A stretch of DNA of 64,000 nt from a virus (taxonomy: Duplodnaviria > Caudoviricetes). The translations under genes and the position numbers were made by a program. Of the stretch, positions 343 to 46,394 are shown in pieces. The first letter of the stretch is position 1; the number at the start of each line of letters is the position of its first letter. The stretch is from the IMG/VR virus record IMGVR_UViG_3300020434_000055; one strand, 5' to 3'. The notes beneath the pieces are model-generated. The model was not told the origin of the DNA, did no database searches, and saw nothing but the letters and a program-made list of their open reading frames with translations.

Positions 343-1545
343 ATGGTACCAATAGATCCCTTCAAAAAAGTTATCGACACATTAAAAGCGAACGGCAATT
401 ACAGAGTTTTTAACGATGTATTGCGAGAAGCCGGACATTTTCCTAATACAATTTGGTATGGAAAACATAATATTAAAAAAGTAATTAATTGGTGTTCTAA
501 TGATTATTTAGGCATGGGTCAGCATAAAGTTGTTATGGACGCAATGAGAACAGCATTAGAAACTACAGGTGCGGGTAGTGGTGGAACAAGAAACATATCA
601 GGGACATCACATTACCATGTAGCTTTAGAAATGGAGTTAGCAAAACTTCATAAAAAGCCAGCATCACTTTTATATACATCAGCCTTTGTTGCAAATGAAT
701 GGACATTAATTTCTCTTAAAAAAATTATTCCAGATATAGAATTTGTTAGTGATAGTGAAAACCATGCTTCTATAATAGTAGGTATTAAAAATAGTAGAGC
801 ACTTAAACATATATTTGAACATAATAATTTAGAAGACTTAGAAAAAAAATTAAAACAAGTAAAAGGTACACCTTGCGTAATATTTGAATCTGTATATAGT
901 ATGGACGGTGACATAGGACATATTAAAGAAATTTGTGATATTGCAGACAAATATAATGCAATAACATTTATTGATGAAGTTCATGCAGTTGGATTATACG
1001 GTCATGAAGGTGCAGGATTTTTAGAAAAATTAGGACTACAAGATAGAGTAGATATTGTTTCTGGTGGCTGTGGTAAAGCATTTGGAGTAGTAGGTGGTTA
1101 CGTTGCCGGAGATGCCACAGTAATAGATGCAATCAGATCTGTGTCTTCAGGATTTATTTTTACTACTAGTAATAGTCCAGTAATATGTGCAGGTGCATTA
1201 GCTTCTGTAAAATTTCTTAGAGATGACGGCGGAAGAGAATTAAGACAACAACACCAACAAGCGGCAAGTCAATTAAGAAAGTTATTATTAGATGCTAATA
1301 TTGATATGGGCACCTCTACATCACATTTAATTCCAGTAATGGTTAGAGATCCAATTAAATGTAAAAAAATGAGTGACGCTTTATTATTAGAACATGACAT
1401 TTATGTTCAGCCTATAAATTCTCCTACGGTTAAACCTGGGACAGAACGATTAAGATTTGCTCCAACACCTTTACATTCTGAATCTATAATACATGATTTA
1501 GTAGACAAACTAAAGAAAGTTATGTTACAATTAGAAAATGAATGA
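343..1545 (+). CDS. hemA: 5-aminolevulinate synthase (Shemin pathway, PLP-dependent)
   Basis: WCSNDYLGMGQH, GAGSGGTRNISGT, DEVHAVGLYG, GKAFG (PLP Lys), VQPINSPTV.PGTERLR. Confidence 0.95.
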   Translation: MVPIDPFKKVIDTLKANGNYRVFNDVLREAGHFPNTIWYGKHNIKKVINWCSNDYLGMGQHKVVMDAMRTALETTGAGSGGTRNISGTSHYHVALEMELAKLHKKPASLLYTSAFVANEWTLISLKKIIPDIEFVSDSENHASIIVGIKNSRALKHIFEHNNLEDLEKKLKQVKGTPCVIFESVYSMDGDIGHIKEICDIADKYNAITFIDEVHAVGLYGHEGAGFLEKLGLQDRVDIVSGGCGKAFGVVGGYVAGDATVIDAIRSVSSGFIFTTSNSPVICAGALASVKFLRDDGGRELRQQHQQAASQLRKLLLDANIDMGTSTSHLIPVMVRDPIKCKKMSDALLLEHDIYVQPINSPTVKPGTERLRFAPTPLHSESIIHDLVDKLKKVMLQLENE

Positions 1546-2197
1546 ATCCGATTATAAAATAACCCCATTATGGGCAACGCCTTTATTTCAATCGACTCTT
1601 AAAAATATACCACAAGAGTGTAAAGACTATATTATGAAAAACGTTGAGTATAAAAGATATCCTGCTAATAATGGATTTGGATCAAAAAGTAAATTCTTAT
1701 TAGATATTCAAGCTCTTGCTCCACTTAAAAAAGTATTAACAGATGTTACACATGAATACCTTTATAAAATATTAGACATAGACGAATCCGCAGATTTTCA
1801 AATGACTAACAGTTGGTCCGTAAAACATATAAAAGGAGATGAGGCTGGACAACATCATCATGCTAATTCTATGTTAAGTGGAATTTTATATCTTCAAACC
1901 GATGAAAAAACCGGTGATGTTTTATTTGTTAAAGAAAGAAATCATTTTCCGTTATTCAATGATACAATACAAATTCCTTTTAAAGGCAACAACTATAACT
2001 TATATAATGTAGAAGGATGGGCAATAAAACCCAGAAACAATCAATTATTGTTATTTCCTTCACAACTTAGACACGAAGTATATCCAAACGAAAGCGATAC
2101 TGAAAGATATTGTATTGCTTTTAACTTCTTTGCATTTGGCAAATTTGGCTATGACGACCAAGTTCAATTAGGTATTAAAGATGTCACCCGTGACTGA
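1538..2197 (+). CDS. 2OG-Fe(II) oxygenase, TIGR02466-like
   Basis: HHHANSMLSGILYL, LLLFPSQLRHEV, RYCIAFN. Confidence 0.85.
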   Translation: MNESDYKITPLWATPLFQSTLKNIPQECKDYIMKNVEYKRYPANNGFGSKSKFLLDIQALAPLKKVLTDVTHEYLYKILDIDESADFQMTNSWSVKHIKGDEAGQHHHANSMLSGILYLQTDEKTGDVLFVKERNHFPLFNDTIQIPFKGNNYNLYNVEGWAIKPRNNQLLLFPSQLRHEVYPNESDTERYCIAFNFFAFGKFGYDDQVQLGIKDVTRD

Positions 2198-3044
2198 TAA
2201 AATTATTATAGGAACCCGTGGCAGTAATTTAGCTTTATCCCAAGCTCGAAGTATTCAAAAATTATTAGAAATTGATTCCGAAATAAAAATTATAAAAACA
2301 TCTGGGGACATCCATGAAAATAAAGCTATTGCTGATATAGGAGGCAAAGGTGTATTTTCAACACAAATTGAACAAGAATTATTAGATTCAAAAATAGATT
2401 TAGCTGTTCACAGTTTAAAAGACCTACCAGGCATAATGACAAAAGGTTTATGTATTAAAGGTGTTGCAAAAAGAAATGATCCCAGAGATGCATTGTTAGG
2501 AAAAATTAAAAAAGGATCTAAAATTGGTACTAGTTCTCCTAGAAGAACTGCCCAATTAAATTATATAAAAAAAGATATAGAAATACTTCCTATTAGAGGT
2601 AATATAGATACTAGAATTAAAAAACTTAAAGATGGACAATATGACGCAATAATATTAGCAATGGCTGGTTTACAAATGCTTGGTTTAGAAAACGAAGTTG
2701 ATAAAATATATGATCTTGATGAAATAAAACCTTGTGCAGGACAAGGCATCATCGCAATACAAACTAGAGACAACAATGATCCTTTAAATGATTTAATTAC
2801 CAAAATAAATGACATACCAACATTTTATCAAGCCCAAGCAGAACGTTCCTTGCTAGAAGCAATTGGAGGGGATTGTCATACTGCATTAGGATGTTATACT
2901 ATGGTATCGGCCTACCATCTTTATCTAACAAGTGAACTATATGTAAATGATAAAAAATATACTGCATCTGGTTCTGGTAATGTTATTGATGCCAAAGACC
3001 TTGGAATCAGAGTTGGTAAAGAATTGTTAGCTCAAACAGACTAA
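2181..3044 (+). CDS. hemC: Porphobilinogen deaminase (hydroxymethylbilane synthase)
   Basis: IGTRGSNLAL, GKGVFS..IE, DLAVHSLKD, GTSSPRR, IRGNIDTR, GGDC (cofactor Cys). Confidence 0.95.
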   Translation: MSPVTDKIIIGTRGSNLALSQARSIQKLLEIDSEIKIIKTSGDIHENKAIADIGGKGVFSTQIEQELLDSKIDLAVHSLKDLPGIMTKGLCIKGVAKRNDPRDALLGKIKKGSKIGTSSPRRTAQLNYIKKDIEILPIRGNIDTRIKKLKDGQYDAIILAMAGLQMLGLENEVDKIYDLDEIKPCAGQGIIAIQTRDNNDPLNDLITKINDIPTFYQAQAERSLLEAIGGDCHTALGCYTMVSAYHLYLTSELYVNDKKYTASGSGNVIDAKDLGIRVGKELLAQTD

Positions 3045-3052
3045 ATATTTTT

Positions 3053-3280
3053 ATGCATCAGAAATACAAAGAAGAATTTATTTCAGTTACAGAATTATGG
3101 CAAGATGAAATCAATGAACTTGTAAATTCTATTTCAATATTAAAAACTTCAAACAATCCATTAGATCAAAGATTACGTTGGAAATACGAAATAGTAATTG
3201 ATTATTTAAAAGGAAGAATAGAAGAAGAAACTAGAGGCAACCATGAACATCGTTTGCCTGAGAAACGTACATTACACTAA
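3053..3280 (+). CDS. Hypothetical protein
   Basis: 75-aa ORF filling the gap, converging on the minus-strand gene. Confidence 0.55.
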   Translation: MHQKYKEEFISVTELWQDEINELVNSISILKTSNNPLDQRLRWKYEIVIDYLKGRIEEETRGNHEHRLPEKRTLH

Positions 3281-3687
3281 TACGGTCCACAAGTACTAAT
3301 TACCATATACCAAAGCTCATCATATTCCCAAATGTAATCAAGTTCTTCTTTTAGATACTTTTGTTGTAAAGGCCAAGCATCTTTCTCCATTTCTTGAACA
3401 CATTTAAACTTAACATTATTCATATCTTGAATATAGTGTATAAGTTCATGAAGTAATAACCCTTTAGCCCAAGGGTCAGACATATCGGTTTCGCCTCTCA
3501 TATAAATGATCTTTTTCTTTAAATCATAAAAGCCGTGAACATCAGTATTTTCAGGTACATCACCCTTGTAATAATGGTATTCTAATGGTGCTTTGTCCAT
3601 ACGAATAACCTGCGGTACGGGCCAGTCCACATTATAATTTGTATTTGCCCCTATCCAGAGCATTAAAGCTACAATAAGTTCTTTCAT
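3277..3687 (-). CDS. Secreted HExxH protein (DUF6647-like zincin)
   Basis: Hydrophobic N-terminus, LLLHELIHYIQ motif, Cys pair. Confidence 0.6.
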   Translation of the reverse strand: MKELIVALMLWIGANTNYNVDWPVPQVIRMDKAPLEYHYYKGDVPENTDVHGFYDLKKKIIYMRGETDMSDPWAKGLLLHELIHYIQDMNNVKFKCVQEMEKDAWPLQQKYLKEELDYIWEYDELWYMVISTCGPY

Positions 3688-3813
3688 AATTTCTAATATT
3701 TATTTTTTTATTTTTTAGACTATTAACGAATAACACATAACAGCATTGTTATATGCGTACATTATACTACAGTTATGATTTAAGTTAAATACACTTACAA
3801 GAGGGAAGGGAGT

Positions 3814-6800
3814 ATGTCAGACCATTCAATTGGAAAAATTACAATTGCTGATGGTATCGTTGTAATTCAGCGAGATAATCAGTCTATAGAACTACAAGAA
3901 GGTGATTCTATCTATCTTAATGATATTGTAGAAGCTAAAAGCGGATCTGTTGGTATTACATTTACAGATGAAACTACATTTTCTATAGATGCAGGTTCTC
4001 AAGTAGTTGTAGATGAATTTGTTTACGATCCTGGTAACACAGGATCAATGAATATAAATGTCTTGGCAGGAAACTTCTCTTACATATCTGGGGAAATTTC
4101 TAAAATGGATGGTGACGTAGAAATTGTAACCCCAACTGCTACACTTACAGTTCAAGGTACCAATGTAGCAGGTAAAGTATCATTAGAAGGTGGTGGAGAC
4201 CAAATCGTATTACTTCCTAACGCAGATGGAACAGTAGGACAAGTTTTAATTACCAACCAATCAGGTAGTATATTATTAACTGAAGCATTTCAATCTACAA
4301 CAATTGCATCTGCTTTTATGCCACCAACTGTTCCTGTAATAATTCCTGAAGAAATTGTATTAAAAGAATTTGGTACTACAATTAATACTATGCAAAAAAT
4401 AAAAAAATTAGCAAAACAAGAAGCAGAAGAGGAAGTTGAAGAGGAAGTTGAAGAAGAAATTGAAGAGGAAGTTGAAGAGGAAGTTGAAGATCCATTTGAG
4501 GAAGAAATTAACGAAGAAGAATTAGAAGAATTAGAAGAAGAATTAGAAGAAGAAACACAACCAGTTGTTGACGAAGAAGTGGTTATTGAAGATGATATAT
4601 TTGAAGAAGAGCCAATTGTTGAAGAACAAGAGGATCAACCTGTCGTAGAAGATACAGTTATAGAAGATGAAATTATAAACGATGAACCTGAAGAGGAAGA
4701 TACTACAACAGAAGAGGATACTACAACAGAAGAAGAGGATACTACAACAGAAGAAGAGGATACTTATATACCACCTGTTATTCCTGACCCTGATCCTCCT
4801 GTTATTGAAGAGGACGAAGAAGAAGACATTTATGTACCACCTGTTACTGAAGAGGAAGATAACGACACTTATGTACCACCTGTTACTGAAGAAGATGAGG
4901 AAGAACCGGAAGTTAATGAAGCACCAACATTTGAAACAACAAGTGCTGTATCAGTTGCAGAAAGTCTTTCTAATGGATCAACTCTTGTTACTATGTCAGC
5001 AACAGATCCTAATACAGATACATCATTAAACACATTAACATATTCAATTACAGCAGGAAATGATGAAGGTAAATTTGCAATTAATTCATCAACTGGTGTA
5101 ATAACATATGCGACACAGGCGTCTACATTAACAACTCAAACATTTGAAAGTTTTTCTAATGGAGCAACAGCAACAGGATGGTCTGGTGATAATGCAGTTT
5201 TAGATACTAATAAATGGACAACTGTACTAGGAAAAATTAATGGTAGCATAAGTTCAACTCAAGACGTTTATAAAACATTTGACTATTCATCTGATTACGC
5301 AGGAAAAAGAGTTGCAATAGACTTTTTGTTTTGGGAGTGGGGTACTTGGGACGCACACAATTACAATCCAGATGGTGGAACAGAACAATTCCGTGTATAT
5401 GTTAATGATACAAATGTTGTTGCTGATGACAGACGTAAAGATGGATTTGGTGCAGGTGATAAAAAATATGGAGTAGAAACACAAAGCACTGGTTGGGATC
5501 CAGTACAAGATTCAAGCTTCTACGGTGACCAAGAAGGAGAACTTTATACAGTATATGGCACACTGGACGCAAGTGGAGATTTAAAATTAGGGTTTGGTAT
5601 GCGAGTTGGTGAAAGTGAATCCAATGAATCAGGAGCAATAGATAATTTAAAAATTTACTTAACAGATTTAAACTACGAAGATAATCAACAATATGTATTA
5701 ACCGTTCAAGCAAGTGATGGCAGTTTATCTGCAACCACAACACAAACAATTAATATAACAGATGTAAATGAAGCACCAAGAATGGAAGAAGCCAGAGATC
5801 CTGTATCAGTTGCTGAAGATACTGCTGACAATACAAACATAGCATCAATTTTTGCAGAAGATCCAGACGGTGACGATATTACATATTCAATTACAGCAGG
5901 TAATACAAATAGCAAATTTTCTATTACGTATTACAATTCTACAAATTCAGGTTTAATTGAAACAAACGGATCAATAGATTATGAAACAACACCACAATAT
6001 ACTTTAACTATAACAGCAACTGATGAAGGCGGTTTAACTACAACTACAACACAGGTTATTAATGTAACCAATGTTAACGAAGCACCAACTCTTGCTAGTA
6101 TGAATAATGTATCATTAGCGGAGAGTGTAAGCTCAGGTACATCAGTTGCAACTGCTTCGGGTTCTGATGTTGATGCAAGTACAACTTTAACATATTCAAT
6201 TTCATCTGGAAATAGTGCAGGCAAATTTGCAATTAATTCCAGCACAGGTGCTATTACTACTGCGGCATCACTAGATTATGAAACTACAACATCTTATACG
6301 TTAGTGGTTCAAGTAAGTGATGGATCTTTAACAGCAACTACAAATCAAGTTGTTAATATAACCAATGTTACAGAGCAATTCCAAGGAACAGCTAATTCTG
6401 GTACAGCGGCTACCTGGGGAGCAAATTTTAGTAATGATATGGTATTTGACAACGCATGGGCCAATGCCAAAATAGGATTTTTTGGTGACTTCCATAACTT
6501 TTCTACTTCTGAAAAAAATGTCATAACAAATATAGCAGAGGACTCTGCTGTAGGATTTGATGATGCCTTACACTTCGCTGACGGCTCAATAGACAATTAC
6601 ACATTTAAAGAGTTGTCAAACTATTCTATGGTTGTTGACTCTACGATAAGTGCATCAAATACATTTGACGATGAAGCATTAGTTCTAAACTTGTTAAGAG
6701 CAGGAACCACAGTAATGGTTGTAGGAGAGAACGCATATTGGGACATCGGCAATCACGCCAGTAATATGAAAATAGAATACATGGCAGATTTAATTGACAG

Positions 6801-7794: not shown

Positions 7795-7798
7795 AATT

Positions 7799-16021: not shown

Positions 16022-17665
16022 ATGTCAAAACTTTTAACAAGCAAATGGGCAGTTTGTATCACTTTATTGATTCTTTTACTCATTAAGTGGGCAGACCCAA
16101 CCCCTATTCAATCAGCAAAACTTACGACCTTTGATTCTTATCAAAAATTTGGACAACACCTTGACTCAAAGAGCTTAATTCTGTTAGATATATCCGATGG
16201 ATCCTTAACAAAAGGAGGTCAATGGCCTTGGAAACGAGATAACATAGGTCGAGTAATAGTTAATGCATATCGCAATGGCGCCGCCTTGGTAGTACTTCAA
16301 GTCGTATTTGCACATAAAGATAGGCTAGGTGGAGATGAAATGTTTCTTAAAATGATTTCAAGATATCCAATTATCCTTACTGAAACTAATGATGTTAAAA
16401 ACTTGCTCAGCATTGAACGAAAAGCACTTGCAATAGGTAACGTAGATGTACCTGTTGATATAGATGGCACAATAAGAAAACTTCCACTTGAAAATTCTAT
16501 TCCAGAAGTAGTACTAAAAGTAATCAAGTTTCCTACTAAAGCAAAAAATGACATATGGATAGACTTCCGTCATCATATTCCAAGAATAGATGCTACTGAT
16601 AAAGACTGGTCAGCAATGAAAGGCAAAATAGTTTTTATTGGAACTACATTTAAAGGTTCAACATTTGTTACTACTCCTAATGGCTTAAAAAATACACACG
16701 AGATAATGGCTATTAGTACTGAAACATTATTGTCAGGCAAATTTATTAGTAGACCAGATTGGCTAGAAAAAATGGAATGGGCATTTGTTATTATAGGAAG
16801 TATACTATTTCTAATTTTAATTCCAAGACTAGGTGTCCTATGGAGTTTTGTACCTATTATAGTTTATCTAAGTATTGTCCTTGGAGCAAGTGCTTACCTA
16901 TGGACAACAAATCTATATCTTACAGAATGGTTAACACCTGTTGTAATTGTTACCTTTGTTTGGGGACATTTAATATACAATAATTTTGCACGTGAGAACA
17001 GATTAAAATTACAAATCAAAAGACAGTTTGAACACTACCTTGCACCCGACATGGTTAAGAAGTTACAAAAAGATCCTTCACTATTAAAACTGGGTGGCGA
17101 AACAAAAACAATGACATTTATGTTTTCAGACATACGAGGCTTTACTCCTATATCAGAAAAATTTAAAAGCAATCCTGCAGGACTTACAAAACTTATTAAC
17201 AGATTCTTAACACGTATGACAAATGTTGTAATTGCTAATAATGGAACTATAGACAAATTCATGGGCGATTGTATTATGGCATTTTGGAATGCACCAATTG
17301 ACGTTAGAGATCATCAAGGTTGTGCTATTAGAACTGCTTTATTAATGACCGTTGAATTAACTGCATTAAACAAAGAACTAAAAGCAGAAGGACTACCTAC
17401 CATTAACATAGGCATAGGAATTAACACAGGTAAAGCACTTGTAGGAAATATGGGTTCTGATCAACGGTTTGACTACTCTGTAATAGGAGACCCTGTTAAT
17501 CTTGCATCACGTTTAGAAAGTTCTAGCAAAACTTTAGGTGAAACTATAATAATTTCAGAAAATACTATACAAGGCAGAGAGCATTTATACCCTTTTAAAT
17601 TCATAGATAGCATTACTGTTAAAGGTAAAACCGAAAAAATCAAGGTTTATACAATAACAACTTAA
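16022..17665 (+). CDS. CHASE2-domain class III adenylate/guanylate cyclase
   Basis: N-terminal TM, CHASE2 (QWPWKR, VDIDGTIRKLPL), 3 TMs, FSDIRGFT, IDKFMGDCIMAFWNAP, GIGINTG..VGNMGS..RFDYSVIGDPVNLASRLE. Confidence 0.95.
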   Translation: MSKLLTSKWAVCITLLILLLIKWADPTPIQSAKLTTFDSYQKFGQHLDSKSLILLDISDGSLTKGGQWPWKRDNIGRVIVNAYRNGAALVVLQVVFAHKDRLGGDEMFLKMISRYPIILTETNDVKNLLSIERKALAIGNVDVPVDIDGTIRKLPLENSIPEVVLKVIKFPTKAKNDIWIDFRHHIPRIDATDKDWSAMKGKIVFIGTTFKGSTFVTTPNGLKNTHEIMAISTETLLSGKFISRPDWLEKMEWAFVIIGSILFLILIPRLGVLWSFVPIIVYLSIVLGASAYLWTTNLYLTEWLTPVVIVTFVWGHLIYNNFARENRLKLQIKRQFEHYLAPDMVKKLQKDPSLLKLGGETKTMTFMFSDIRGFTPISEKFKSNPAGLTKLINRFLTRMTNVVIANNGTIDKFMGDCIMAFWNAPIDVRDHQGCAIRTALLMTVELTALNKELKAEGLPTINIGIGINTGKALVGNMGSDQRFDYSVIGDPVNLASRLESSSKTLGETIIISENTIQGREHLYPFKFIDSITVKGKTEKIKVYTITT

Positions 17666-17693
17666 CCCTGTTTTTTAGATATAAATAGTTTTA

Positions 17694-17861
17694 ATGGAAC
17701 CAACAGAAGCAATAACGATATTATCTAAGCTATGGCCTATCTTTGTGGCCTTCATAATGTTAATTGTGGTTCTCGCTCAATCGCATTATCGAATCAAGGT
17801 GCTAGAGGAGAAGGTTAAAGTTGCGTTCGAATTAATTAATAAGCTCACTAACAAGAAATAA
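17694..17861 (+). CDS. Small membrane protein (55 aa; not in ORF track)
   Basis: MEPTEAITILSKLWPIFVAFIMLIVVLAQSHYRIKVLEEKV..; TATAAATA at 17680-17687. Confidence 0.65.
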   Translation: MEPTEAITILSKLWPIFVAFIMLIVVLAQSHYRIKVLEEKVKVAFELINKLTNKK

Positions 17862-17936
17862 ACTCACTTAACTTTTATAGCCATTTAACTTTGCGGTAAA
17901 TGACCGTAAATAAATTAGTGAACGAAGGAAAATAAT

Positions 17937-18242
17937 ATGGAAAAATTCTTTATGGTAATTGTGTTTTGCATAGGTGCAGAATGCCAAGGTATTTGGCAAG
18001 AGTCTACTTATAACAGTATGGCTAATTGTATTAATGCATCACCTATGGTTAAAGAATATTTTATGGCTACATTTCCAGAATCCCGTGGAGAAATCTACTG
18101 TATGGACGGTATTCAATTTACCGAGTGGAGAAAATGGGTAGAAGATGGTAATAGCCCAGAAATTATTATACCATTGGAAGATCCTGATTCACCTAGAAGT
18201 TTTATCCCTAAGAGTAAAAACGTACCTCAAGGGTTAAACTAA
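17937..18242 (+). CDS. Hypothetical secreted Cys-containing protein
   Basis: Hydrophobic N-terminus, 4 Cys, AAGGA SD. Confidence 0.6.
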   Translation: MEKFFMVIVFCIGAECQGIWQESTYNSMANCINASPMVKEYFMATFPESRGEIYCMDGIQFTEWRKWVEDGNSPEIIIPLEDPDSPRSFIPKSKNVPQGLN

Positions 18243-18313
18243 TGGACTTTTCTAATAAAACCTGGCTACAATTATTCATAGTAGTAGTGCTAATAGCACT
18301 ACTCTTAGGGTAG
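18242..18313 (+). CDS. Possible 23-aa membrane peptide
   Basis: TAATG stop/start overlap; MDFSNKTWLQLFIVVVLIALLLG. Confidence 0.35.
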   Translation: MDFSNKTWLQLFIVVVLIALLLG

Positions 18314-18407
18314 ACCTCTCAATAATACAATTAAAGTACTCTTGATCCGGTGGCATATTTGCCATTAGAGCGGTAAATACTGCTATTAGGGTCAAACGGA
18401 CAGGAAA

Positions 18408-18668
18408 ATGAAAAAGACGACAAGGTCGATTTTAGATGATTTGCATAGTATTCATAGAGTAAAGGATACTGAAGCATTTCTAGAAACTACAGGTAGCAAC
18501 ATTATAGAAAGTGCTGTTAACCTATTAAACGTTATCAACAATAACTATCCTCCTGATCAGGCCCAAGAACTAGAACGAAGATTCATTAATTCTATTAAAA
18601 ATGGTGAATCAAAAAAATTTAAAGTGGGTATTAAAAAGATTATTGAGGGTAAGCAGGATGAATCTTAA
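18408..18668 (+). CDS. Hypothetical phage protein
   Basis: 86-aa ORF, CAGGA SD, TAAATA at 18374-18379. Confidence 0.7.
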   Translation: MKKTTRSILDDLHSIHRVKDTEAFLETTGSNIIESAVNLLNVINNNYPPDQAQELERRFINSIKNGESKKFKVGIKKIIEGKQDES

Positions 18669-28073: not shown

Positions 28074-28094
28074 TAGACAATGAAGGAGAATATT

Positions 28095-28202
28095 ATGGCT
28101 TGCAATAATGAAAATTGCCAATGTGAAAATTGTACTTGCGATCCTTGTTTATGTACGGAAAGCAACCAATGTTCTTGTCCTAAAGAACAAACAGATGAGT
28201 AA
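28095..28202 (+). CDS. Metallothionein-like Cys-rich peptide (35 aa, 9 Cys; not in ORF track)
   Basis: AAGGAG SD at 28083; MACNNENCQCENCTCDPCLCTESNQCSCPKEQTDE*. Confidence 0.7.
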   Translation: MACNNENCQCENCTCDPCLCTESNQCSCPKEQTDE

Positions 28203-28635
28203 TAGAACTAAAGAAGAAATTGCTAAAGACATCAAATTCGTGCTGGAAGATAAAGTAGCCCCAGCTGTTGCCCAACATAATGGATTTATAAATTATTTGG
28301 ATTTTGATATGGAATTAGGTGTGGCAAAATTAGAATTAGCAGGAAGTTGTTCAGGATGTGCTATGTCTAAACAAACACTACATCAAGGTGTGGAAGATAT
28401 GTTAAAGCATTATGTTCCAGAAGTTAACGCAATAGTAGGCGAAGATGATGAAAAAGCAGTAGAACAAGGTTATAGTCCTTTTGTACCATCAAATCAATAT
28501 CCTGAAGAAGAAACAGAAACAGAATCAGAAAGACTACAAAAACAATTAGAACCTATAGATGCTATTGACAATGTTGATGGTACTACAGAATTAGACAAAA
28601 TAGATTCTTTGACTACAGAAAATAATAAAAAATAA
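28195..28635 (+). CDS. NifU/NfuA C-terminal Fe-S scaffold domain protein
   Basis: PAVAQHNGFI..KLELAGSCSGCAMSKQTL.QGVE.ML...VPEV; likely ATG 28195 (ORF track 28108). Confidence 0.9.
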   Translation: MSNRTKEEIAKDIKFVLEDKVAPAVAQHNGFINYLDFDMELGVAKLELAGSCSGCAMSKQTLHQGVEDMLKHYVPEVNAIVGEDDEKAVEQGYSPFVPSNQYPEEETETESERLQKQLEPIDAIDNVDGTTELDKIDSLTTENNKK

Positions 28636-35312: not shown

Positions 35313-35564
35313 ATGTCAAATATAGTATGGTCTAAAATGCAATGTCATTTTTGTGATATGGCTAAAAGACTTTTAGAACAAAAAGAAATTGTATATGAAG
35401 AAAGAATGATTGGTGAAGGCTGGACTACAGAGCAATTATTAGAAGCAGTTCCTAATGTCCGAACTGTTCCTCAAATTATCTTAGACGGAAAATTAATAGG
35501 AAGTTATGACAATTTAGTAGAACATTTTAAAAAAATAGACAAAGAAAAATATGCCAGAGATTAA
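35313..35564 (+). CDS. Glutaredoxin
   Basis: CHFC active site, RTVPQI, IGSY. Confidence 0.9.
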   Translation: MSNIVWSKMQCHFCDMAKRLLEQKEIVYEERMIGEGWTTEQLLEAVPNVRTVPQIILDGKLIGSYDNLVEHFKKIDKEKYARD

Positions 35565-37737: not shown

Positions 37738-37763
37738 AGTAGTATATAAATATAGTTAATATA

Positions 37764-38516: not shown

Positions 38517-38521
38517 TTATT

Positions 38522-39162: not shown

Positions 39163-39287
39163 TGACATTAGGCGACGGTATATTATTAGGACTTATAGGC
39201 TGTACATTAACAGTCGTTGGTTTAGGTTACGCATATTATAAAGGTTCTCAAAAGAAAGAAGACGACGAAGAAAACGACCTTTTCTAG
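39162..39287 (+). CDS. Small membrane protein (41 aa; not in ORF track)
   Basis: GGAGG SD; MTLGDGILLGLIGCTLTVVGLGYAYYKG.. Confidence 0.6.
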   Translation: MTLGDGILLGLIGCTLTVVGLGYAYYKGSQKKEDDEENDLF

Positions 39288-39362
39288 GTTGTATTTTAAC
39301 ATTTTGGTAAACTACTACCAAAAAAGCCTTCAAAACCAAGACTTCTTAATCGAACAAATACC

Positions 39363-39391
39363 TTGACTTTTTGGTAGCAATTCTATATAAT
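39363..39391 (+). promoter_or_regulatory. Sigma70-like promoter
   Basis: TTGACT-17-TATAAT. Confidence 0.8.
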
Positions 39392-39425
39392 ATAGATAAT
39401 GAATACTTTTAATCAAGGAGGCAAA

Positions 39426-40013: not shown

Positions 40014-40019
40014 GGACTT

Positions 40020-40349
40020 ATGAAAAAGTTATTTTTTCTATTGTGTGCCACGACTCTATTATTGGTTGCTAGAGCAGAAGCAGGCGGAGTTTGGAGTGAT
40101 CAGTATTGTAATATTGAAACACAAACTATAATAACCAAAGACACTAATGGTAAAATTATTAGTGAAGAATCAATAGAAAAATTAGTATGTAATGACGGAG
40201 CAAAAGATTTCCTTGCTTATAGCGGTATAGCAAAAGAATGCAGGGAATTTTGGTTCGAAATTTTATTAAGCAACAGATTTGTAAAAAGGAAAGGTTATGT
40301 TTGCCAAAAATTTGACGGTAGTTGGGAAATTGTGTATAATCCTAAGTAG
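40020..40349 (+). CDS. Secreted hypothetical protein
   Basis: Signal peptide, Cys pairs. Confidence 0.6.
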   Translation: MKKLFFLLCATTLLLVARAEAGGVWSDQYCNIETQTIITKDTNGKIISEESIEKLVCNDGAKDFLAYSGIAKECREFWFEILLSNRFVKRKGYVCQKFDGSWEIVYNPK

Positions 40350-40752
40350 CTTATTGTTGTTCGCTTGTAGTTCAACAAAACAAAGTTCACTTAATAGCGA
40401 AAGCACTTTTAAGAGTGTAGAAAGTGACTTTGAACAAACTGGACACGCAGTTAACTTAATATATAATTCAATAAAATCTAAACACTTTAGTTTAACCAAA
40501 CAGGATCAAATCAAACAAATGCAGGCGGTATTCTTCGCATTAGATAATGCAGAAGAAGGTCAAGTTGTTAGTTGGGTTAATGGTAAGAACGATACATTTG
40601 GTTTGGTTAAAGTAGTTTCAAGTTATCCACACGGTAGTGGGTATTGCCGTGTAATATTCACACAAATCTCTAAAAAAGGTAAGGTTAGAGACTTCTCAGA
40701 AACAGCCTGTAAAGACGTTGCTTATGAAGGCTGGCAATTCATTAGAAATTAA
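40297..40752 (+). CDS. RT0821/Lpp0805 (17-kDa surface antigen-like) lipoprotein
   Basis: Lipobox LFAC; ALDN...G..VSW.N, GYCR.....I, TAC; start uncertain. Confidence 0.7.
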   Translation: MFAKNLTVVGKLCIILSSLLLFACSSTKQSSLNSESTFKSVESDFEQTGHAVNLIYNSIKSKHFSLTKQDQIKQMQAVFFALDNAEEGQVVSWVNGKNDTFGLVKVVSSYPHGSGYCRVIFTQISKKGKVRDFSETACKDVAYEGWQFIRN

Positions 40753-40809
40753 CATTCGGGTTAATCAGATAGTTTTATTAACGATAAGTATTAGTTTAAA
40801 TAATACTAT

Positions 40810-42735: not shown

Positions 42736-42844
42736 ATCCAAAACAACCAAATAAAGAAGTATTCCCAATAAATTACATAGTTAGAGATAAGAATATTCAA
42801 GTTCGTAAAAAAACTATGCCAAAAGAAGACGACGAATCATAATA

Positions 42845-42873
42845 TTGACATTTACCATCCAATATGCTAAAAT
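42845..42873 (+). promoter_or_regulatory. Sigma70 promoter, leaderless start
   Basis: TTGACA-17-TAAAAT with TG; ATG 7 nt downstream. Confidence 0.75.
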
Positions 42874-42879
42874 AACTTA

Positions 42880-43299
42880 ATGTCAGAAATTAAGTTAATA
42901 ACACCTCCCGATAAACTATTAAACAATAATAAAAGTTTCCTTTTGGTTAATCTAAAGGATACTTTTAAAGATGAATTTAATAACATTATGAAAAACATAA
43001 ATGTTAATATTAACCTTTATATGTATGATGAAGCAGGTTACAAAGATAGTGCTAATTGGTTAATTGAAATATCTAATTTAGCTGACTATATTATTTTGGA
43101 TATAGACCAAACTGGTTTGGATAATTGGTTAATTGGATATCTATTAGCTAAAAATCATACCTTTTATACTTGTATAGATATACCTAAACCTAGACCTTAT
43201 AACTTAATAAACAGTAATAGAATTTATAATTTAGATCCAATAAAAACAATCCTAAAAGACTTAAATGACACACCAACTAACACGAAAACAACTAATTGA
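42880..43299 (+). CDS. Hypothetical protein
   Basis: 139-aa ORF. Confidence 0.7.
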   Translation: MSEIKLITPPDKLLNNNKSFLLVNLKDTFKDEFNNIMKNINVNINLYMYDEAGYKDSANWLIEISNLADYIILDIDQTGLDNWLIGYLLAKNHTFYTCIDIPKPRPYNLINSNRIYNLDPIKTILKDLNDTPTNTKTTN

Positions 43300-43954
43300 T
43301 AGTATAATCAATATACCCAAATATTATATTATTAGATTTACTGGTTTAGGATATGAATCAGTAATGGGTATAATAACAAAAAAACAACATGACTATTGGA
43401 AAAGAAAAGGACAACGTAAACTAGGAGAGTATCTAGCAGAGTTGCGTGATATGAATGACTTAGATTATGTTCCTTATGAATCCCAATTAAAATCATCTGA
43501 TTGGTATGATTATGATAGTGTAGCCCACGCCGCCGGTGCCGAACTTAATCCTAAAAATTATTTGACTATAGAAGAAATTGATGGTCCAGACGTTCATACA
43601 GTATTAACTGAAAAATTATCTATTAAAAAATTAGCTAAACGTGGTATTGGTACATTTTGTACAGGAATATTTAATTGTAATATGAGTACATTAAAAGACA
43701 AACATTATTTCCATGGTCAAAGTCACGAACTAGGTACTTGGACTAATGAAGAAAAAATAGTTACTAACGCATTAGGTTTACAATTAGACAAGTTAAAAAT
43801 ACTATATGCAGATGTAGAAGGTAAACAAATAATTCATGGTGTTAGATATATTAAACAACCATACCATATGGAGACAAATAAAGTTACCGGAAAAAGTCTT
43901 AAACTTGGCGTAAAAAGAGGCTGGTATGATATTTTGGCGAATTTAGGCTCTTGA
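43265..43954 (+). CDS. Hypothetical protein
   Basis: 229-aa ORF. Confidence 0.65.
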   Translation: MTHQLTRKQLIDSIINIPKYYIIRFTGLGYESVMGIITKKQHDYWKRKGQRKLGEYLAELRDMNDLDYVPYESQLKSSDWYDYDSVAHAAGAELNPKNYLTIEEIDGPDVHTVLTEKLSIKKLAKRGIGTFCTGIFNCNMSTLKDKHYFHGQSHELGTWTNEEKIVTNALGLQLDKLKILYADVEGKQIIHGVRYIKQPYHMETNKVTGKSLKLGVKRGWYDILANLGS

Positions 43955-44001
43955 TTTTTCGCTGAATAATGTTTATATTATAATAGTATGATAAATAACA
44001 T

Positions 44002-44053
44002 TGTACGTGATGCTATGATAGGTCTCGTACACATAACTTGCTTAACAAAGGAG
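44002..44053 (+). promoter_or_regulatory. ROSE-like RNA thermometer in hsp20 leader
   Basis: CTTGCTT-AACA-AAGGAG hairpin with bulged G opposite SD; upstream TGTACG/CGTACA hairpin. Confidence 0.6.
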
Positions 44054-44060
44054 GACGATT

Positions 44061-44507
44061 ATGACAAATAAAGCCCTATCAATTTTTAATCAACTAAGAC
44101 CCGTTACAATTGGATTTGATAACGTATTCGATCATTTTGAAAGAATGATGGAAGGCGATAACTTTTTCAATGGTGCTGGTGTTAATTACCCACCTTACAA
44201 TATTGTGAAAACAGGTGAAAACACTCACGATATTGAAGTTGCTCTTGCTGGATTCAGTAAGAAAGATATTGATGTAGAGTATAAAGACAATATGCTTACA
44301 ATCAAATCTATCAAAGAATCCAATACTGGCAATCAAAAGGATGGAGTTGTGCATAGAGGAATATCACAAAGATATTTTTCTAAATCTTTTACAATTGCGG
44401 ATGACGTAGAAATAAAAGGTGCAGAACTTAAAGATGGTCTTTTGACAGTTTCTTTGGAAAGAATAATTCCGGAAAGTAAAAAGGCTAAAAAAATAGACAT
44501 TAAGTAA
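44061..44507 (+). CDS. Small heat-shock protein Hsp20/IbpA family
   Basis: IGFD, NYPPYNI, IEVALAGF, HRGI..R.F...F..A, A.L.DGLL.V.L. Confidence 0.95.
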   Translation: MTNKALSIFNQLRPVTIGFDNVFDHFERMMEGDNFFNGAGVNYPPYNIVKTGENTHDIEVALAGFSKKDIDVEYKDNMLTIKSIKESNTGNQKDGVVHRGISQRYFSKSFTIADDVEIKGAELKDGLLTVSLERIIPESKKAKKIDIK

Positions 44508-44519
44508 TATTAATGGAGA

Positions 44520-44553
44520 TAGGTGGGGGCGTTTTTTAATACGCCCTAACCTA
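44520..44553 (+). terminator. Hairpin after hsp20 abutting TATAAATA of clpS
   Basis: GGGCGT/ACGCCC plus TAGGT/ACCTA; TATAAATA at 44552-44559. Confidence 0.55.
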
Positions 44554-44565
44554 TAAATACTTAAA

Positions 44566-44871
44566 ATGAGCACAGAAATAGAAGTTAAAATAGACGAAAA
44601 AATAAAACAAGTAATTAAAGAACCTGAAAATTACAAGGTTATCTTTTTGAACGATAACGTTACCCCAATGGAATTTGTAATAGATATTTTAATCAAAATA
44701 TTTAAACACACCGCAGAAACGGCTCGTGATCTTACTCTGAAAATCCATAAAGAAGGCTCTATAATTGTTGGACTTTATACATACGAAATAGCAGAACAAA
44801 AAGGTATGGAGGCAACTAACGAAAGTAGGAGTTTAGGATATCCACTTCAGGTTAAGATTGAAAAAGAGTGA
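44566..44871 (+). CDS. clpS: ClpS N-degron adaptor
   Basis: YKVIFLNDNVTPMEFV, IH.EG, Y.YEIAE.K. Confidence 0.92.
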   Translation: MSTEIEVKIDEKIKQVIKEPENYKVIFLNDNVTPMEFVIDILIKIFKHTAETARDLTLKIHKEGSIIVGLYTYEIAEQKGMEATNESRSLGYPLQVKIEKE

Positions 44872-45491
44872 GCAAATTAAAAGAATTAACGTGGGAACAC
44901 CATAAAAACGCAGAGCGACATGAATTCGCCAAACTTCTAATGAGTGGCAAAATGCCAGAGAAGTTATATGCTACATATCTTTATAATCAACACCCTTGCT
45001 ATGTTATAGTTGAAGCAGTTGGAATGGCATATGGTTTAATGGATGGGGGCTTAAGACGAGCACCTGCAATATGGGACGACTTTAAAGAATTATGGCCAAA
45101 CGTTCCAGATGACGATACTAAAGATTATGAAAAACCATTTATAGCACCTTGCGTAAAAGAATTCCTTGATCATATTCAAAAAATAAAAAGTGATAGAAAA
45201 AAAGTAATGGCCCACATTTATGTTCGTCATATGGCAGATTTAAGTGGAGGTCAAATGATTAGAAAACGTATACCTGGTAAAGGACGTTTATATGATTTTC
45301 CTAAACCAATTGACGAAATGAAAGCTGATGTAAGAAAAAATTTAAGTGATGATATGGCAGATGAGGCAATAATAGCTTTTGGCTTTGCCACTAAATTATT
45401 CAAAGAATTAAGTACACAAATTTATAATGAAGATAATAGAAATACTACAAATGATCCTTTTAAAGGAACAGTTATAGAAGGAAAAGATTAA
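44868..45491 (+). CDS. hemO: Heme oxygenase (HemO/Ho1-like)
   Basis: LKELTWEHH..AE, AHIYVRHMADLSGGQMI, EA..AF.F; GTG start. Confidence 0.9.
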   Translation: MSKLKELTWEHHKNAERHEFAKLLMSGKMPEKLYATYLYNQHPCYVIVEAVGMAYGLMDGGLRRAPAIWDDFKELWPNVPDDDTKDYEKPFIAPCVKEFLDHIQKIKSDRKKVMAHIYVRHMADLSGGQMIRKRIPGKGRLYDFPKPIDEMKADVRKNLSDDMADEAIIAFGFATKLFKELSTQIYNEDNRNTTNDPFKGTVIEGKD

Positions 45492-45697
45492 TGACATCTT
45501 TATCTAAAATAAGACATAGACAAAAGTTTGAAGAAGCACCCAAAAATGATTTTACTGGAAATATGATAAGGGTTAATATTCTTAAAGAAGAAATAGCACA
45601 TCTTAAAACATTACTTCAACCAACGGACACTGGACATATTCATACTGCAATATCTGTCTTGGAAGACCGAATAAAAGAATTAGAAAATGAAAAATGA
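45491..45697 (+). CDS. Hypothetical protein
   Basis: 68 aa; GHIHTAISVLE.R. Confidence 0.6.
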   Translation: MTSLSKIRHRQKFEEAPKNDFTGNMIRVNILKEEIAHLKTLLQPTDTGHIHTAISVLEDRIKELENEK

Positions 45698-46394
45698 GTC
45701 TTTTATTTGGAATAAACTTATAGAGTGTCAAAATCAAATACTAAAAGAGTTTAATACTAGAGGTACAGAAATAACTGAACCTGGTATGGATCATTTTAAC
45801 CAACCTGAAAATGGTTGGATGAATAGAGTATGGCAAACTGAAAATTGTAGACGTTGTCATATAGATGTAGTAGATGCTAGAGATACAAAAGCTCTTTGGA
45901 TGATGCACGTATGTGTTTTTCCTAATCTTGATAATGATGGTCCTATATATGGCTTTGATGTTATTGCAGGTAAAAATAAAATGACTGGAGCCTTCCATGA
46001 TTTTTCAGCATCTTCTGGAGGAGAAAAACATCCTTTAGTAGACTGGTATAAAGATGCAGTAGCAGATTATATACCTAGCAAAAAAAGAGTATTACCTGAA
46101 TGGGCAAAAAATATATTTTCAAGTAGTATGATTGCCGCGGGTAATGTTAGAACAGATGAAGAAGCAACTGCAATAGTTGATTTAGCAATTAGCAATCTTA
46201 AAACTTATTTTGACAGTATAGGACAATACTCAGGTAAAGCACTTAAAGAAAATACAATAAAAGCACAAAATTACTATTGTAATAATCAAACACAAAATCC
46301 ACATACACCCAGAGTAATGTTGTCTTTAGGACTAAACGAAAAAGACGTTAAAAAGTTTTGTACAGACATATTATTTCCTAAAATAAGCCAATAA
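45687..46394 (+). CDS. pcyX: Ferredoxin-dependent bilin reductase, PcyX/PcyA-like
   Basis: RRCHIDVVD, MMHVCVFP, PIYGFDVIAG..K.TGAFHDFS, QN.YC.NQ..NPHT; next to heme oxygenase. Confidence 0.8.
   Translation: MKNESFIWNKLIECQNQILKEFNTRGTEITEPGMDHFNQPENGWMNRVWQTENCRRCHIDVVDARDTKALWMMHVCVFPNLDNDGPIYGFDVIAGKNKMTGAFHDFSASSGGEKHPLVDWYKDAVADYIPSKKRVLPEWAKNIFSSSMIAAGNVRTDEEATAIVDLAISNLKTYFDSIGQYSGKALKENTIKAQNYYCNNQTQNPHTPRVMLSLGLNEKDVKKFCTDILFPKISQ

What the first reader, a model, noticed from the sequence alone, without database searches (positions are those of the whole stretch)
343..46394. Both ends of the tetrapyrrole pathway: hemA/hemC and hemO/pcyX, plus Fe-S helpers
Seen: ALA synthase and PBG deaminase (343-3044), heme oxygenase and bilin reductase (44868-46394), NifU (28195), IscA (61081), glutaredoxin. 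Known: HemO/PcyX from marine phages make phycoerythrobilin using ferredoxin, and HemO releases iron; the role in non-photosynthetic hosts is unresolved. Inference: the phage pushes flux from glycine/succinyl-CoA through to bilin, suggesting the bilin itself, not just iron scavenging, is the goal.
Basis: partly seen in the sequence, partly recalled or inferred. Interest (0 to 1): 0.6.

Follow-up and report, generated by a model that had tools for sequence, protein, structure and literature searches.

The report
Phage heme-to-bilin gene set, extended
A giant ocean phage that probably infects SAR11 bacteria carries intact genes for the first steps of heme synthesis and for turning heme into a pink bilin pigment; the core of this set was published in 2024, but related phages carry more of the pathway than that paper's main text names.

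Summary
Observation confirmed. The window holds intact alaS (343-1545), a 2OG-Fe(II) oxygenase (1538-2197) and hemC (2181-3044) as one overlapping operon. About 43 kb away lies clpS-hemO-orf68-pcyX (44566-46394). Nfu, IscA and a glutaredoxin are also real.

Interpretation partly supported. Viral alaS with hemO and pcyA/X, together or as a "broken cassette", was published by Wegner et al. 2024 (PMC11480375). This scan has flagged the same theme on other phage DNA (e1-5390664, e1-5684541, e1-5960439).

What I add:
- hemC sits in an operon with alaS.
- The closest relative also carries hemF, hemE and hemH upstream of alaS.
- A complete 177-kb T4-like phage carries alaS, hemO, an FDBR and a 2OG-hemF-hemB-hemC operon.
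- A short hemB occurs on about 60 viral contigs.
- Both window operons start 5-6 nt after a rare TATAAATA box.
- AlaS lacks the heme-feedback residues.

Against "bilin is the goal":
- pcyX is far commoner than alaS.
- One 73%-complete phage has alaS, hemC and hemE but neither hemO nor pcyX.
- The window has no ferredoxin or bilin-binding protein.
- The glutaredoxin sits beside the ribonucleotide reductase genes.

Verdict: a new variant of a known kind.

The parts
330..337 (+). TATAAATA box (T4 late-promoter consensus) ending 5 nt before the alaS ATG
   Evidence: One of only 5 copies in 64 kb (14.8 expected), all on the + strand and all just upstream of a gene or RNA start. Kept in the two closest relatives, L001 and L002; more distant alaS loci have NTAAATA variants at the same place.
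343..1545 (+). alaS (hemA), 5-aminolevulinate synthase, 400 aa
   Evidence: TIGR01821 533.9 bits > 338.55. PDB 7x98 and 2bwn at E about 1e-120. PLP Lys245 is kept. R. capsulatus His342 aligns to Lys339, and there is no Cys after position 340, so the heme-feedback residues are absent.
1538..2197 (+). 2OG-Fe(II) oxygenase, 219 aa. It overlaps alaS by 8 nt and hemC by 17 nt. Substrate unknown.
   Evidence: PF13759 80.1 bits; TIGR02466 71.6 > 62.5. Kept between alaS and hemC in L001 and L002, and next to alaS in L003/4/8/11/26/32.
2181..3044 (+). hemC, hydroxymethylbilane synthase (porphobilinogen deaminase), 287 aa
   Evidence: TIGR00212 290.6 > 164. Catalytic and cofactor residues are kept. The nearest named cellular relatives are Candidatus Pelagibacter HemC, 54-57% identical and 311 aa.
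44061..44507 (+). Hsp20, conserved upstream neighbour of the clpS-hemO-pcyX block
   Evidence: PF00011 66.3 bits. Present upstream of clpS in 68 of 80 pcyX loci.
44552..44559 (+). TATAAATA box ending 6 nt before the clpS ATG, after a GC-rich hairpin
   Evidence: Exact in the five closest loci, L041-L045; hairpin plus TAAATA-like variants in many others.
44566..44871 (+). clpS, adaptor of the ClpAP protease, 101 aa; overlaps hemO by 4 nt
   Evidence: PF02617 95 bits. Lies directly upstream of hemO in 77 of the 78 loci that have hemO.
44868..45491 (+). hemO, heme oxygenase, 207 aa, GTG start
   Evidence: PF01126 59.8 > 23. Proximal His12 is kept (75 of 78 relatives). Ala123 replaces the first Gly of GDLSGGQ in this clade only.
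45491..45697 (+). orf68, small conserved protein of unknown function between hemO and pcyX
   Evidence: No Pfam or NCBIfam match. A homologue was detected in 52 of 80 pcyX loci, between hemO and pcyX in most of them and several kb downstream of pcyX in a few. Sequence.
45687..46394 (+). pcyX-type ferredoxin-dependent bilin reductase, 235 aa
   Evidence: PDB 5OWG PcyX at E 7.5e-81 over residues 4-234; PcyA only about 1e-10. PF05996 60.2 > 31. His74 and Asp91 align to the same residues of PcyX.
46628..47630 (+). Two SprT-like zinc-protease-type ORFs after pcyX (46628-47107 and 47163-47630)
   Evidence: HEMVH motif. The first ORF's nearest Atlas clusters are viral SprT-like. The second matches PF10263. 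The first is present in 61 of 80 pcyX loci.
28195..28635 (+). Nfu-type Fe-S carrier (ORF track starts at 28108).
   Evidence: PF01106 68.5 bits; CxxC kept. Seen within 10 kb of pcyX in only 3 of 80 loci.
61081..61437 (+). IscA/ErpA-type A-type Fe-S carrier; overlaps the start of a baseplate/tail-fibre-like gene
   Evidence: TIGR00049 93 > 58.8. Cys35/101/103 kept. The next ORF has PHROG baseplate-wedge and tail-fibre matches.
35313..35564 (+). Glutaredoxin/NrdH-like ORF (CHFC), about 600 nt downstream of nrdA-nrdB
   Evidence: sequence motif only; no family search was run on it. nrdA: phrog_84, 1094.9 bits. nrdB: PF00268.

Best explanation
The window comes from a giant T4-like marine phage that most likely infects SAR11 (Pelagibacter). 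It holds two separate, tightly overlapping operons of host-derived tetrapyrrole enzymes.

Operon 1 is alaS, a 2OG-Fe(II) oxygenase and hemC. It supplies 5-aminolevulinate from glycine and succinyl-CoA through an AlaS that lacks the heme-feedback residues. It also supplies the porphobilinogen-to-hydroxymethylbilane step. Together these raise flux into the common tetrapyrrole trunk free of host control.

Operon 2 is clpS, hemO, orf68 and pcyX. It opens heme to biliverdin IX-alpha, releasing iron and CO, and reduces biliverdin by four electrons to phycoerythrobilin using host ferredoxin.

Both operons begin 5-6 nt after a T4-late-type TATAAATA box. They are therefore probably made together, late, as leaderless mRNAs.

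In this lineage further steps are probably phage-encoded too. hemF, hemE and hemH are seen in the closest relative; hemB and a hemD-like gene are reported only by unchecked notes. If so, the infected cell can carry glycine through heme to bilin largely on phage enzymes.

Shown here: gene identities, conserved catalytic residues, operon structure, conservation and co-occurrence in relatives.
Inferred: expression timing, host, enzyme activity, the PEB product, and any flow from operon 1 into operon 2.

The two modules are separable in evolution. The supply module therefore has value of its own, and 'bilin is the goal' remains one possibility, not a conclusion.
For: Identities and residues.

Operon overlaps.

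Relatives:
- alaS-2OG-hemC is kept in L001 and L002.
- Hsp20-clpS-hemO-(orf68)-pcyX is kept, with clpS beside hemO in 77 of 78 loci.
- alaS and pcyX lie about 40 kb apart on the 148-kb relative G001, as in the window.
- The closest relative, G003, has hemH, hemE and hemF 27, 18 and 9.5 kb upstream of alaS.
- Its dnaK/CTP-synthase-fragment overlap of 47 nt matches note e1-5337616 for this genome, which supports shared gene order upstream of the window.
- The complete T4-like genome G051 has alaS, HO, FDBR and a 2OG-hemF-hemB-hemC operon beside baseplate gp25/gp6.

Promoter box: 5 copies against 14.8 expected, all next to a start. The tmRNA match begins 7 nt after its box, which fixes the likely transcription start.

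Host: HemC is nearest to Candidatus Pelagibacter, there is an alpha-type two-piece tmRNA, and GC is 32%.

Published activity of relatives: viral AlaS, HemO and PcyA/PcyX (PMC11480375).
Against: - No activity, expression or metabolite data exist for this phage.
- HemO carries Ala in place of the first distal-helix Gly. From memory, G139A in human HO-1 lowers but does not abolish activity.
- hemB, hemD, hemE, hemF and hemH were not seen in this genome itself. No genome is held, the upstream sequence is outside the window, and PF00490 and PF02602 were negative on the 50 related fragments.
- hemD (Pfam) and a protoporphyrinogen oxidase were found in no phage record searched.
- Roughly a dozen window genes start 5-13 nt after an NTAAATA-type box, so co-regulation is not unique to the two operons.
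- pcyX is about ten times commoner than alaS, and G002 has the supply genes without hemO or pcyX.
Confidence: 0.6

Rival explanations
1. There are two unrelated auxiliary modules. The biosynthetic genes keep heme cofactors (respiratory cytochromes and other hemoproteins) supplied while host gene expression collapses. The clpS-hemO-pcyX block separately breaks down heme, for example heme freed from degraded host hemoproteins. That recovers iron for the phage's many iron enzymes, and PcyX serves mainly to remove biliverdin. On this view bilin is a by-product.
For: - The modules are separable: pcyX 282 loci against alaS 32.
- G002 has alaS, hemC and hemE without HO or FDBR.
- G032 and G043, both over 100 kb, have pcyX without alaS.
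- hemO/pcyX is embedded in protein-turnover genes: Hsp20, ClpS and two SprT-like zincins.
- The phage is rich in iron enzymes: at least two PF13759 2OG-Fe(II) oxygenases plus an Asp/Asn beta-hydroxylase-family match, NrdB, Nfu and IscA here, and SufB and NadA in G003.
- No bilin acceptor was found in the window.
- This is the view favoured in PMC11480375.
Against: - If hemH is phage-encoded, as in G003, making heme consumes the iron that HemO would free.
- Both operons share the same rare promoter box.
- A four-electron, product-specific reductase is more than a simple sink needs.
- alaS is fused into one cassette with pcyX in several lineages (L005-L007, G041).
Confidence: 0.3
2. The products act as signals rather than as bulk metabolites. 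Altered heme, porphyrin or PEB levels would reprogramme host regulation, for example the heme- and ferrochelatase-sensing Irr iron regulator of alphaproteobacteria, or an unrecognised bilin sensor.
For: - Irr and its link to ferrochelatase are raised for pelagiphages in PMC9599517.
- The AlaS here has lost the feedback residues, so heme could overshoot.
- Bilin-binding globins next to pre-PcyA genes in heterotrophs are cited in PMC11480375.
Against: No sensor, GAF/PHY domain or globin was found in the window. Nothing here was tested on regulation.
Confidence: 0.07
3. The genes are recently captured host DNA with no selected function in the phage (hitch-hikers), or they are inactive.
For: The HemO Gly-to-Ala change. 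HemC is 24 aa shorter than the SAR11 enzyme.
Against: - The genes are only 54-57% identical to SAR11 homologues, yet conserved at 80-99% within a phage clade.
- Catalytic residues are intact.
- The overlapping operons are conserved across contigs from many samples.
- The Ala variant is fixed in the whole clade.
Confidence: 0.03

Closest known systems
Viral alaS with hemO and pcyA/X in aquatic phages: three-gene cassette, 'broken cassette' or lone valaS (Wegner et al. 2024, Nat Commun, PMC11480375)
   Same: Shemin-type AlaS, HemO and an FDBR on one phage contig. The marine contigs cluster with pelagimyophages. vAlaS is about 55% identical to Pelagibacteraceae AlaS and often lacks His342/Cys400. 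The window is a 'broken cassette', with alaS and pcyX 43 kb apart.
   Different: Here alaS is in one overlapping operon with a 2OG-Fe(II) oxygenase and hemC. The paper's main text names no hemB, hemC, hemD, hemE, hemF or hemH and no ClpS. Relatives found here carry hemB/C/E/F/H operons.
hemO-pcyX cassette of uncultured marine phages and PcyX (PDB 5OWG; Ledermann et al. 2016 and 2018, as cited in PMC11480375)
   Same: HemO followed by a PcyX-type reductase. The match to the solved PcyX has E 7.5e-81, and the aligned His and Asp are kept.
   Different: This clade has an extra 68-aa ORF between the two genes and an Ala at the first distal Gly of HemO. The product was not assayed.
Pelagimyophage 'deep ecotype' genomes with coproporphyrinogen oxidase and porphobilinogen deaminase (Zaragoza-Solas et al. 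2020, PMC7029224)
   Same: T4-like SAR11 phages carrying hemC and hemF.
   Different: That paper gives one sentence, with no link to alaS, hemB, hemE, hemH or hemO/pcyX, and no operon description.
Ferrochelatase always adjacent to a 2OG-Fe(II) oxygenase in HTVC023P-type pelagiphages (PMC9599517; also PMC11561400)
   Same: PF13759-type oxygenases sit directly beside heme-pathway genes: alaS-2OG-hemC here, hemH-2OG-2OG in G003, and 2OG-hemF-hemB-hemC in G051.
   Different: Those are podoviruses carrying only hemH. Here the partners are alaS, hemC, hemE and hemF in myoviruses.

Membership tests
5-aminolevulinate synthase (AlaS/HemA, EC 2.3.1.37) | Scores above the curated equivalog cut-off, and above the sister alpha-oxoamine synthases (KBL, BioF, SPT) | tested here: met
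   TIGR01821 533.9 bits against 338.55. KBL, BioF and SPT models all score below their own cut-offs. The PDB ranking shows the same.
5-aminolevulinate synthase (AlaS/HemA, EC 2.3.1.37) | PLP-binding lysine (R. capsulatus K248) | tested here: met
   Lys245 in GKAFG aligns to it.
5-aminolevulinate synthase (AlaS/HemA, EC 2.3.1.37) | [quoted passage not shown] | not testable with these tools
   Shown for another viral AlaS (phage CB_2) in PMC11480375.
Hydroxymethylbilane synthase (HemC) | Equivalog score, plus both domains | tested here: met
   TIGR00212 290.6 against 164; PF01379 and PF03900 both present.
Hydroxymethylbilane synthase (HemC) | Dipyrromethane-cofactor cysteine, catalytic Asp and substrate-binding Arg residues | tested here: met
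   Cys232, Asp81 and Arg13/121/122/139/145 align to the B. megaterium enzyme (PDB 4mlq); the equivalence to E. coli D84/C242 numbering is from memory.
Heme oxygenase (HO-1/HmuO type, PF01126) | Pfam score above gathering, with the proximal heme-ligand His | tested here: met
   59.8 bits against 23. His12 aligns to HmuO His20.
Heme oxygenase (HO-1/HmuO type, PF01126) | Distal-helix GDLSGGQ motif | tested here: inconclusive
   Reads ADLSGGQ here and in the 5 closest loci; 55 of 78 relatives read YVRHMGDLSGGQM exactly and about 70 keep the first Gly. The effect on activity is unknown.
PcyX-type ferredoxin-dependent bilin reductase | Closer to solved PcyX than to PcyA or other FDBRs | tested here: met
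   5OWG at E 7.5e-81 against PcyA at 3.7e-11.
PcyX-type ferredoxin-dependent bilin reductase | Conserved His/Asp pair of the active site; gene next to hemO | tested here: met
   His74 and Asp91 are identical in the alignment to 5OWG. hemO lies 196 nt upstream.
PcyX-type ferredoxin-dependent bilin reductase | Converts biliverdin IX-alpha to phycoerythrobilin | not testable with these tools
   The freshwater CB_2 homologue turned out to be a PcyA that makes PCB, so the product needs an assay.
Published viral alaS/hemO/pcyX set (Wegner et al. 2024) | All three genes on one phage contig of pelagimyophage type | tested here: met
   All three are in the window. PHROG tail and baseplate matches. The relatives G002 and G051 carry T4 gp23.
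Complete phage-encoded heme pathway (ALA to protoheme) | hemB, hemD, hemE, hemF, a protoporphyrinogen oxidase and hemH in the same genome | tested here: inconclusive
   The genome is not held. hemF, hemE and hemH are in the closest relative G003. hemB is in other phages. hemD (PF02602) and HemJ (PF03653) were found nowhere. hemB and a hemD-like gene in this genome are known only from unchecked notes.

The most novel reading that the evidence does not exclude
This giant SAR11 phage lineage encodes an almost self-sufficient, feedback-released, late-expressed route from glycine and succinyl-CoA to phycoerythrobilin: AlaS, HemB, HemC, a HemD-like protein, HemE, HemF, HemH, HemO and PcyX. On this reading, de novo bilin made in a non-photosynthetic host is the selected product. 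The PF13759 2OG-Fe(II) oxygenases that recur beside the heme genes might supply a missing oxidative step or tailor a tetrapyrrole.
Probability: 0.2. Interest if true: 0.8.

Novelty: new variant of a known kind. Interest (0 to 1): 0.5.

Why it matters
Why phages of non-photosynthetic bacteria make bilins is an open question, stated as such in the 2024 paper. These phages carry not only the first enzyme but also operons of trunk and late heme enzymes, including in a complete T4-like genome. They also tie hemO to clpS almost without exception. This turns the question into testable ones. Is newly made heme the substrate of HemO? Is the flux late in infection? Does ClpS-directed proteolysis feed heme to HemO? 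It also adds several widespread, hardly described viral metabolic genes (hemB, hemC, hemE, hemF) to the list for ocean iron and cofactor budgets.

Tried and rejected
The rest of this genome could therefore not be read.
- The window's own contig is not in IMG/VR or in the JGI metagenome set; the best matches are 82-88% identical.
- The INPHARED phage collection has no DNA match to the first 8 kb and no AlaS at E 1e-60. Its only HemC matches are at or below about 36% identity; several lie in bacterial genome records and none resembles this clade.
- hemB and hemD family searches on 50 related fragments were negative. Fer2 was negative on 23 records and HemJ on 5.
- The generic sigma-70 and terminator scans were no better than shuffles.
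- I tested the conserved ORF after pcyX (46628-47107) as a possible bilin binder. It is a SprT-like zincin.
- I tested the 441-aa FAD enzyme next to hemF in G003 as a possible HemY. It is sarcosine/glycine-oxidase-like and below every cut-off.
- A Pfam sweep of 65 further window ORFs found no ferredoxin, GAF/PHY, phycobilisome-type or lyase family.
- I rejected the glutaredoxin as an Fe-S helper because it sits next to nrdA/nrdB.

Full report
**What is in the window**

The 64-kb window has 30-36% GC and is almost entirely transcribed on the + strand.

At its left end three ORFs overlap one another:
- 343-1545 is a 5-aminolevulinate synthase.
- 1538-2197 is a 2OG-Fe(II) oxygenase of the PF13759/TIGR02466 type.
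- 2181-3044 is hydroxymethylbilane synthase.

AlaS passes the curated equivalog cut-off (533.9 against 338.55 bits), while the sister enzymes KBL, BioF and SPT all fall below theirs. Its best solved relatives are bacterial and human ALAS at E about 1e-120, and the PLP lysine is kept as K245. HemC passes its cut-off (290.6 against 164). It keeps the catalytic Asp81, the arginines and the cofactor Cys232.

Forty-three kb further on, four ORFs again overlap: clpS (44566-44871), hemO (44868-45491, GTG start), a 68-aa ORF (45491-45697) and an FDBR (45687-46394).
- The FDBR matches the solved phage enzyme PcyX (5OWG) at E 7.5e-81, against about 1e-10 for PcyA. The aligned His and Asp are kept.
- HemO keeps the proximal His12. 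It reads ADLSGGQ where most of 78 phage relatives read GDLSGGQ. The Ala is shared by the five closest loci.

Nfu (28195-28635) and IscA (61081-61437) keep their cysteines. The glutaredoxin-like ORF (35313-35564) lies about 600 nt downstream of nrdA/nrdB, so it is most simply the reductase's redox partner.

**What kind of genome this is**

PHROG matches include tail-fibre and baseplate-wedge families and ribonucleotide reductase. Relatives reached from the window are IMG/VR contigs with CheckV completeness of 8-41%, which implies genomes of roughly 360-400 kb. Two related records carry the T4 major capsid protein gp23.

Evidence on the host:
- The window holds a two-piece tmRNA that matches the alphaproteobacterial model (RF01849, 81 bits).
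- The nearest named cellular relatives of its HemC are Candidatus Pelagibacter proteins, at 54-57% identity.

Together with the low GC, a SAR11 host is the likely inference.

**What is already known**

Wegner et al. 2024 (PMC11480375) described viral alaS in marine and freshwater phage contigs. It occurs alone, in a three-gene cassette with hemO and pcyA/X, or as a "broken cassette". They showed activity for one viral AlaS, HemO and PcyA. They noted that many vAlaS lack the heme-feedback residues His342 and Cys400, and they called the purpose of the catabolic genes enigmatic.

The window's AlaS fits this description. His342 of the R. capsulatus enzyme aligns to Lys339, and there is no cysteine after position 340.

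That paper's main text names no hemB, hemC, hemD, hemE, hemF, hemH or ClpS. One sentence in Zaragoza-Solas et al. 2020 (PMC7029224) reports coproporphyrinogen oxidase and porphobilinogen deaminase in a deep-water pelagimyophage group. Ferrochelatase adjacent to 2OG-Fe(II) oxygenases is described for pelagipodoviruses (PMC9599517, PMC11561400).

Notes from this scan show the same theme flagged on other phage DNA (e1-5390664, e1-5684541, e1-5960439).

**What relatives show**

alaS gave 32 IMG/VR loci and pcyX gave 282.
- The two closest alaS loci (86-88% identity) keep alaS-2OG-hemC.
- A 71%-identity group has alaS-DUF454-2OG-2OG and no hemC.
- Another group has DUF454-alaS-pcyX.
- On the 148-kb relative G001, alaS and pcyX are about 40 kb apart, as in the window.

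Family searches of whole records gave the following:
- hemC was found in 10 of 50 records, including six reached through pcyX.
- hemE was found in 6 of 14. It lies directly beside hemC in G039, G044 and G046, and hemE-hemF-hemC are contiguous in G010.
- The closest relative, G003 (43.6 kb), has hemH, hemE and hemF at 27, 18 and 9.5 kb upstream of alaS. hemH and hemF are above their NCBIfam cut-offs. hemE scores 300.1 against 302.95.

G003's dnaK overlaps a CTP-synthase fragment by 47 nt. Note e1-5337616 describes exactly this for the present genome, about 7.5 kb before the window. Gene order upstream of the window is therefore probably shared. This is an inference; I did not see that DNA.

About 62 of those contigs carry short HemB ORFs of 264-296 aa, read stop to stop. 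PF00490 was confirmed on 14 of 14 records tested, of which 12 hold short ORFs (268-296 aa) and two hold full-length 333-aa ones.

One of these, G051, is a complete genome: 177,460 bp, terminal repeats, CheckV 100%, gp23 at 507 bits. It carries:
- alaS, with an FDBR and hemO lying adjacent to each other about 3-4 kb from alaS;
- an overlapping operon 2OG(PF13759)-hemF-hemB-hemC, about 1.6 kb from baseplate genes gp25 and gp6.

G052 has a hemF-hemC-hemE-hemB operon, with alaS 8 kb further on and Hsp20-ClpS-HemO-PcyX 30 kb away.

hemD (Pfam) and HemJ were found in none of the records searched.

**Regulation**

TATAAATA, the T4 late-promoter consensus (established knowledge), occurs only five times in the window against 14.8 expected. 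All five are on the + strand, and each lies just before a start:
- alaS (box ends 5 nt before the ATG);
- a 55-aa ORF;
- the tmRNA (the Rfam match begins 7 nt after the box);
- ORF 37764;
- clpS (box ends 6 nt before the ATG).

If transcription starts where the tmRNA starts, both tetrapyrrole operons give leaderless mRNAs. The exact box is kept in the closest relatives, and NTAAATA variants occur at the same place in many others. Roughly a dozen window genes show this layout, so it marks a class of genes and not a private link between the two operons.

**The neighbourhood of hemO/pcyX**

- clpS lies directly before hemO in 77 of 78 loci.
- Hsp20 precedes clpS in 68 of 80 loci.
- orf68 was detected in 52 of 80 loci, between hemO and pcyX in most of them.
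- A SprT-like ORF follows pcyX in 61 of 80.

I found no paper in the held library that links ClpS with phage heme oxygenase.

For it:
- Both ends are intact and co-occur in several lineages and in a complete genome.
- AlaS is freed from heme feedback.
- A phage ferrochelatase would cancel any net iron gain from newly made heme.

Against it:
- pcyX is about ten times commoner than alaS.
- G002 (156 kb, 73% complete) has alaS, hemC and hemE without hemO or an FDBR.
- Long pcyX contigs lack alaS.
- The window has no ferredoxin or recognisable bilin-binding protein.
- hemO/pcyX sits among protein-turnover genes, which fits heme salvage.
- The Fe-S carriers show no specific link. Nfu lies near pcyX in 3 of 80 loci. 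They can equally serve the phage's other iron-sulfur enzymes.

I therefore hold the pathway reading with good confidence and the "bilin is the goal" reading at roughly one in four to one in three.

**Verdict**

The finding is real and correctly read at the gene level. Its central idea is already published. The extension documented here is, as far as the held literature shows, barely described. That extension comprises hemC in an operon with alaS, the hemB/C/E/F/H operons in related T4-like phages, the ClpS linkage and the shared late-type box. I class it as a new variant of a known kind, of moderate interest.

Noticed in passing
window 44061-47630; loci L041-L120: hemO/pcyX is the middle of a conserved block: Hsp20, ClpS, HemO, orf68, PcyX, a 60-aa ORF, then two SprT-like zincins. 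ClpS sits directly before hemO in 77 of 78 loci. I found no paper linking ClpS to phage heme oxygenase.
   Followed up: partly
L004:11184-11597 and L005:9588-10004: A DUF454/YbaN-type membrane protein lies directly next to alaS in two different arrangements: after it in L003/L004/L032 and before it in L005-L007. Another scan note (e1-5684541) also reports 'ALA synthase with ybaN'. The window itself has none beside alaS.
   Followed up: partly
window 1538-2197; L140:10933-13686 and 16623-18497; L232:6441-7223: PF13759 2OG-Fe(II) oxygenases recur right beside heme genes: alaS-2OG-hemC here, hemH-2OG-2OG and hemE-x-2OG-2OG-2OG in G003, and 2OG-hemF-hemB-hemC in G051. These phages hold many such paralogues, so chance adjacency is not excluded. 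The substrate is unknown.
   Followed up: partly
L147-L226 (IMG/VR); L232:4003-6441; L233:2656-6185: A short HemB (264-296 aa against about 330 in cells, CxCx7C zinc site kept) is on about 60 viral contigs, often in operons with hemF, hemC and hemE. In complete genome G051 the operon lies about 1.6 kb from baseplate genes gp25/gp6.
   Followed up: partly
window 330, 17680, 37017, 37745, 44552: TATAAATA is depleted (5 copies against 14.8 expected). Every copy lies 5-12 nt before a gene or RNA start on the + strand, including the two-piece tmRNA. This implies leaderless late transcripts.
   Followed up: partly
L140-L141 (G003, closest relative): The region upstream of alaS holds SufB (844 bits), NadA, a sarcosine/glycine-oxidase-like FAD enzyme next to hemF, DnaK, a CTP-synthase fragment, a Vut_1 vitamin-transporter-like gene next to hemH, and five tRNAs.
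   Followed up: partly
window 28080-28202: A 40-aa ORF with 9 cysteines (CxC repeats) ends inside the start of the Nfu gene. It is also flagged by note e1-5337624.
   Followed up: no
L018:20600-21184 (G004): Hsp20 and ClpS homologues occur about 10 kb from alaS on a 60-kb contig that has no hemO or FDBR. The ClpS block can therefore exist without the bilin genes.
   Followed up: no
window 61081-61437 / 61430-64000: The IscA-type gene overlaps by 8 nt the start of a large ORF with baseplate-wedge and tail-fibre PHROG matches. That is an odd partner for an Fe-S carrier.
   Followed up: no
tree of HemC: Phage HemC falls into at least three deep clades. The window's clade groups with SAR11 HemC, apart from the other phage clades, which hints at more than one capture. 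The tree is unrooted and has long branches.
   Followed up: partly
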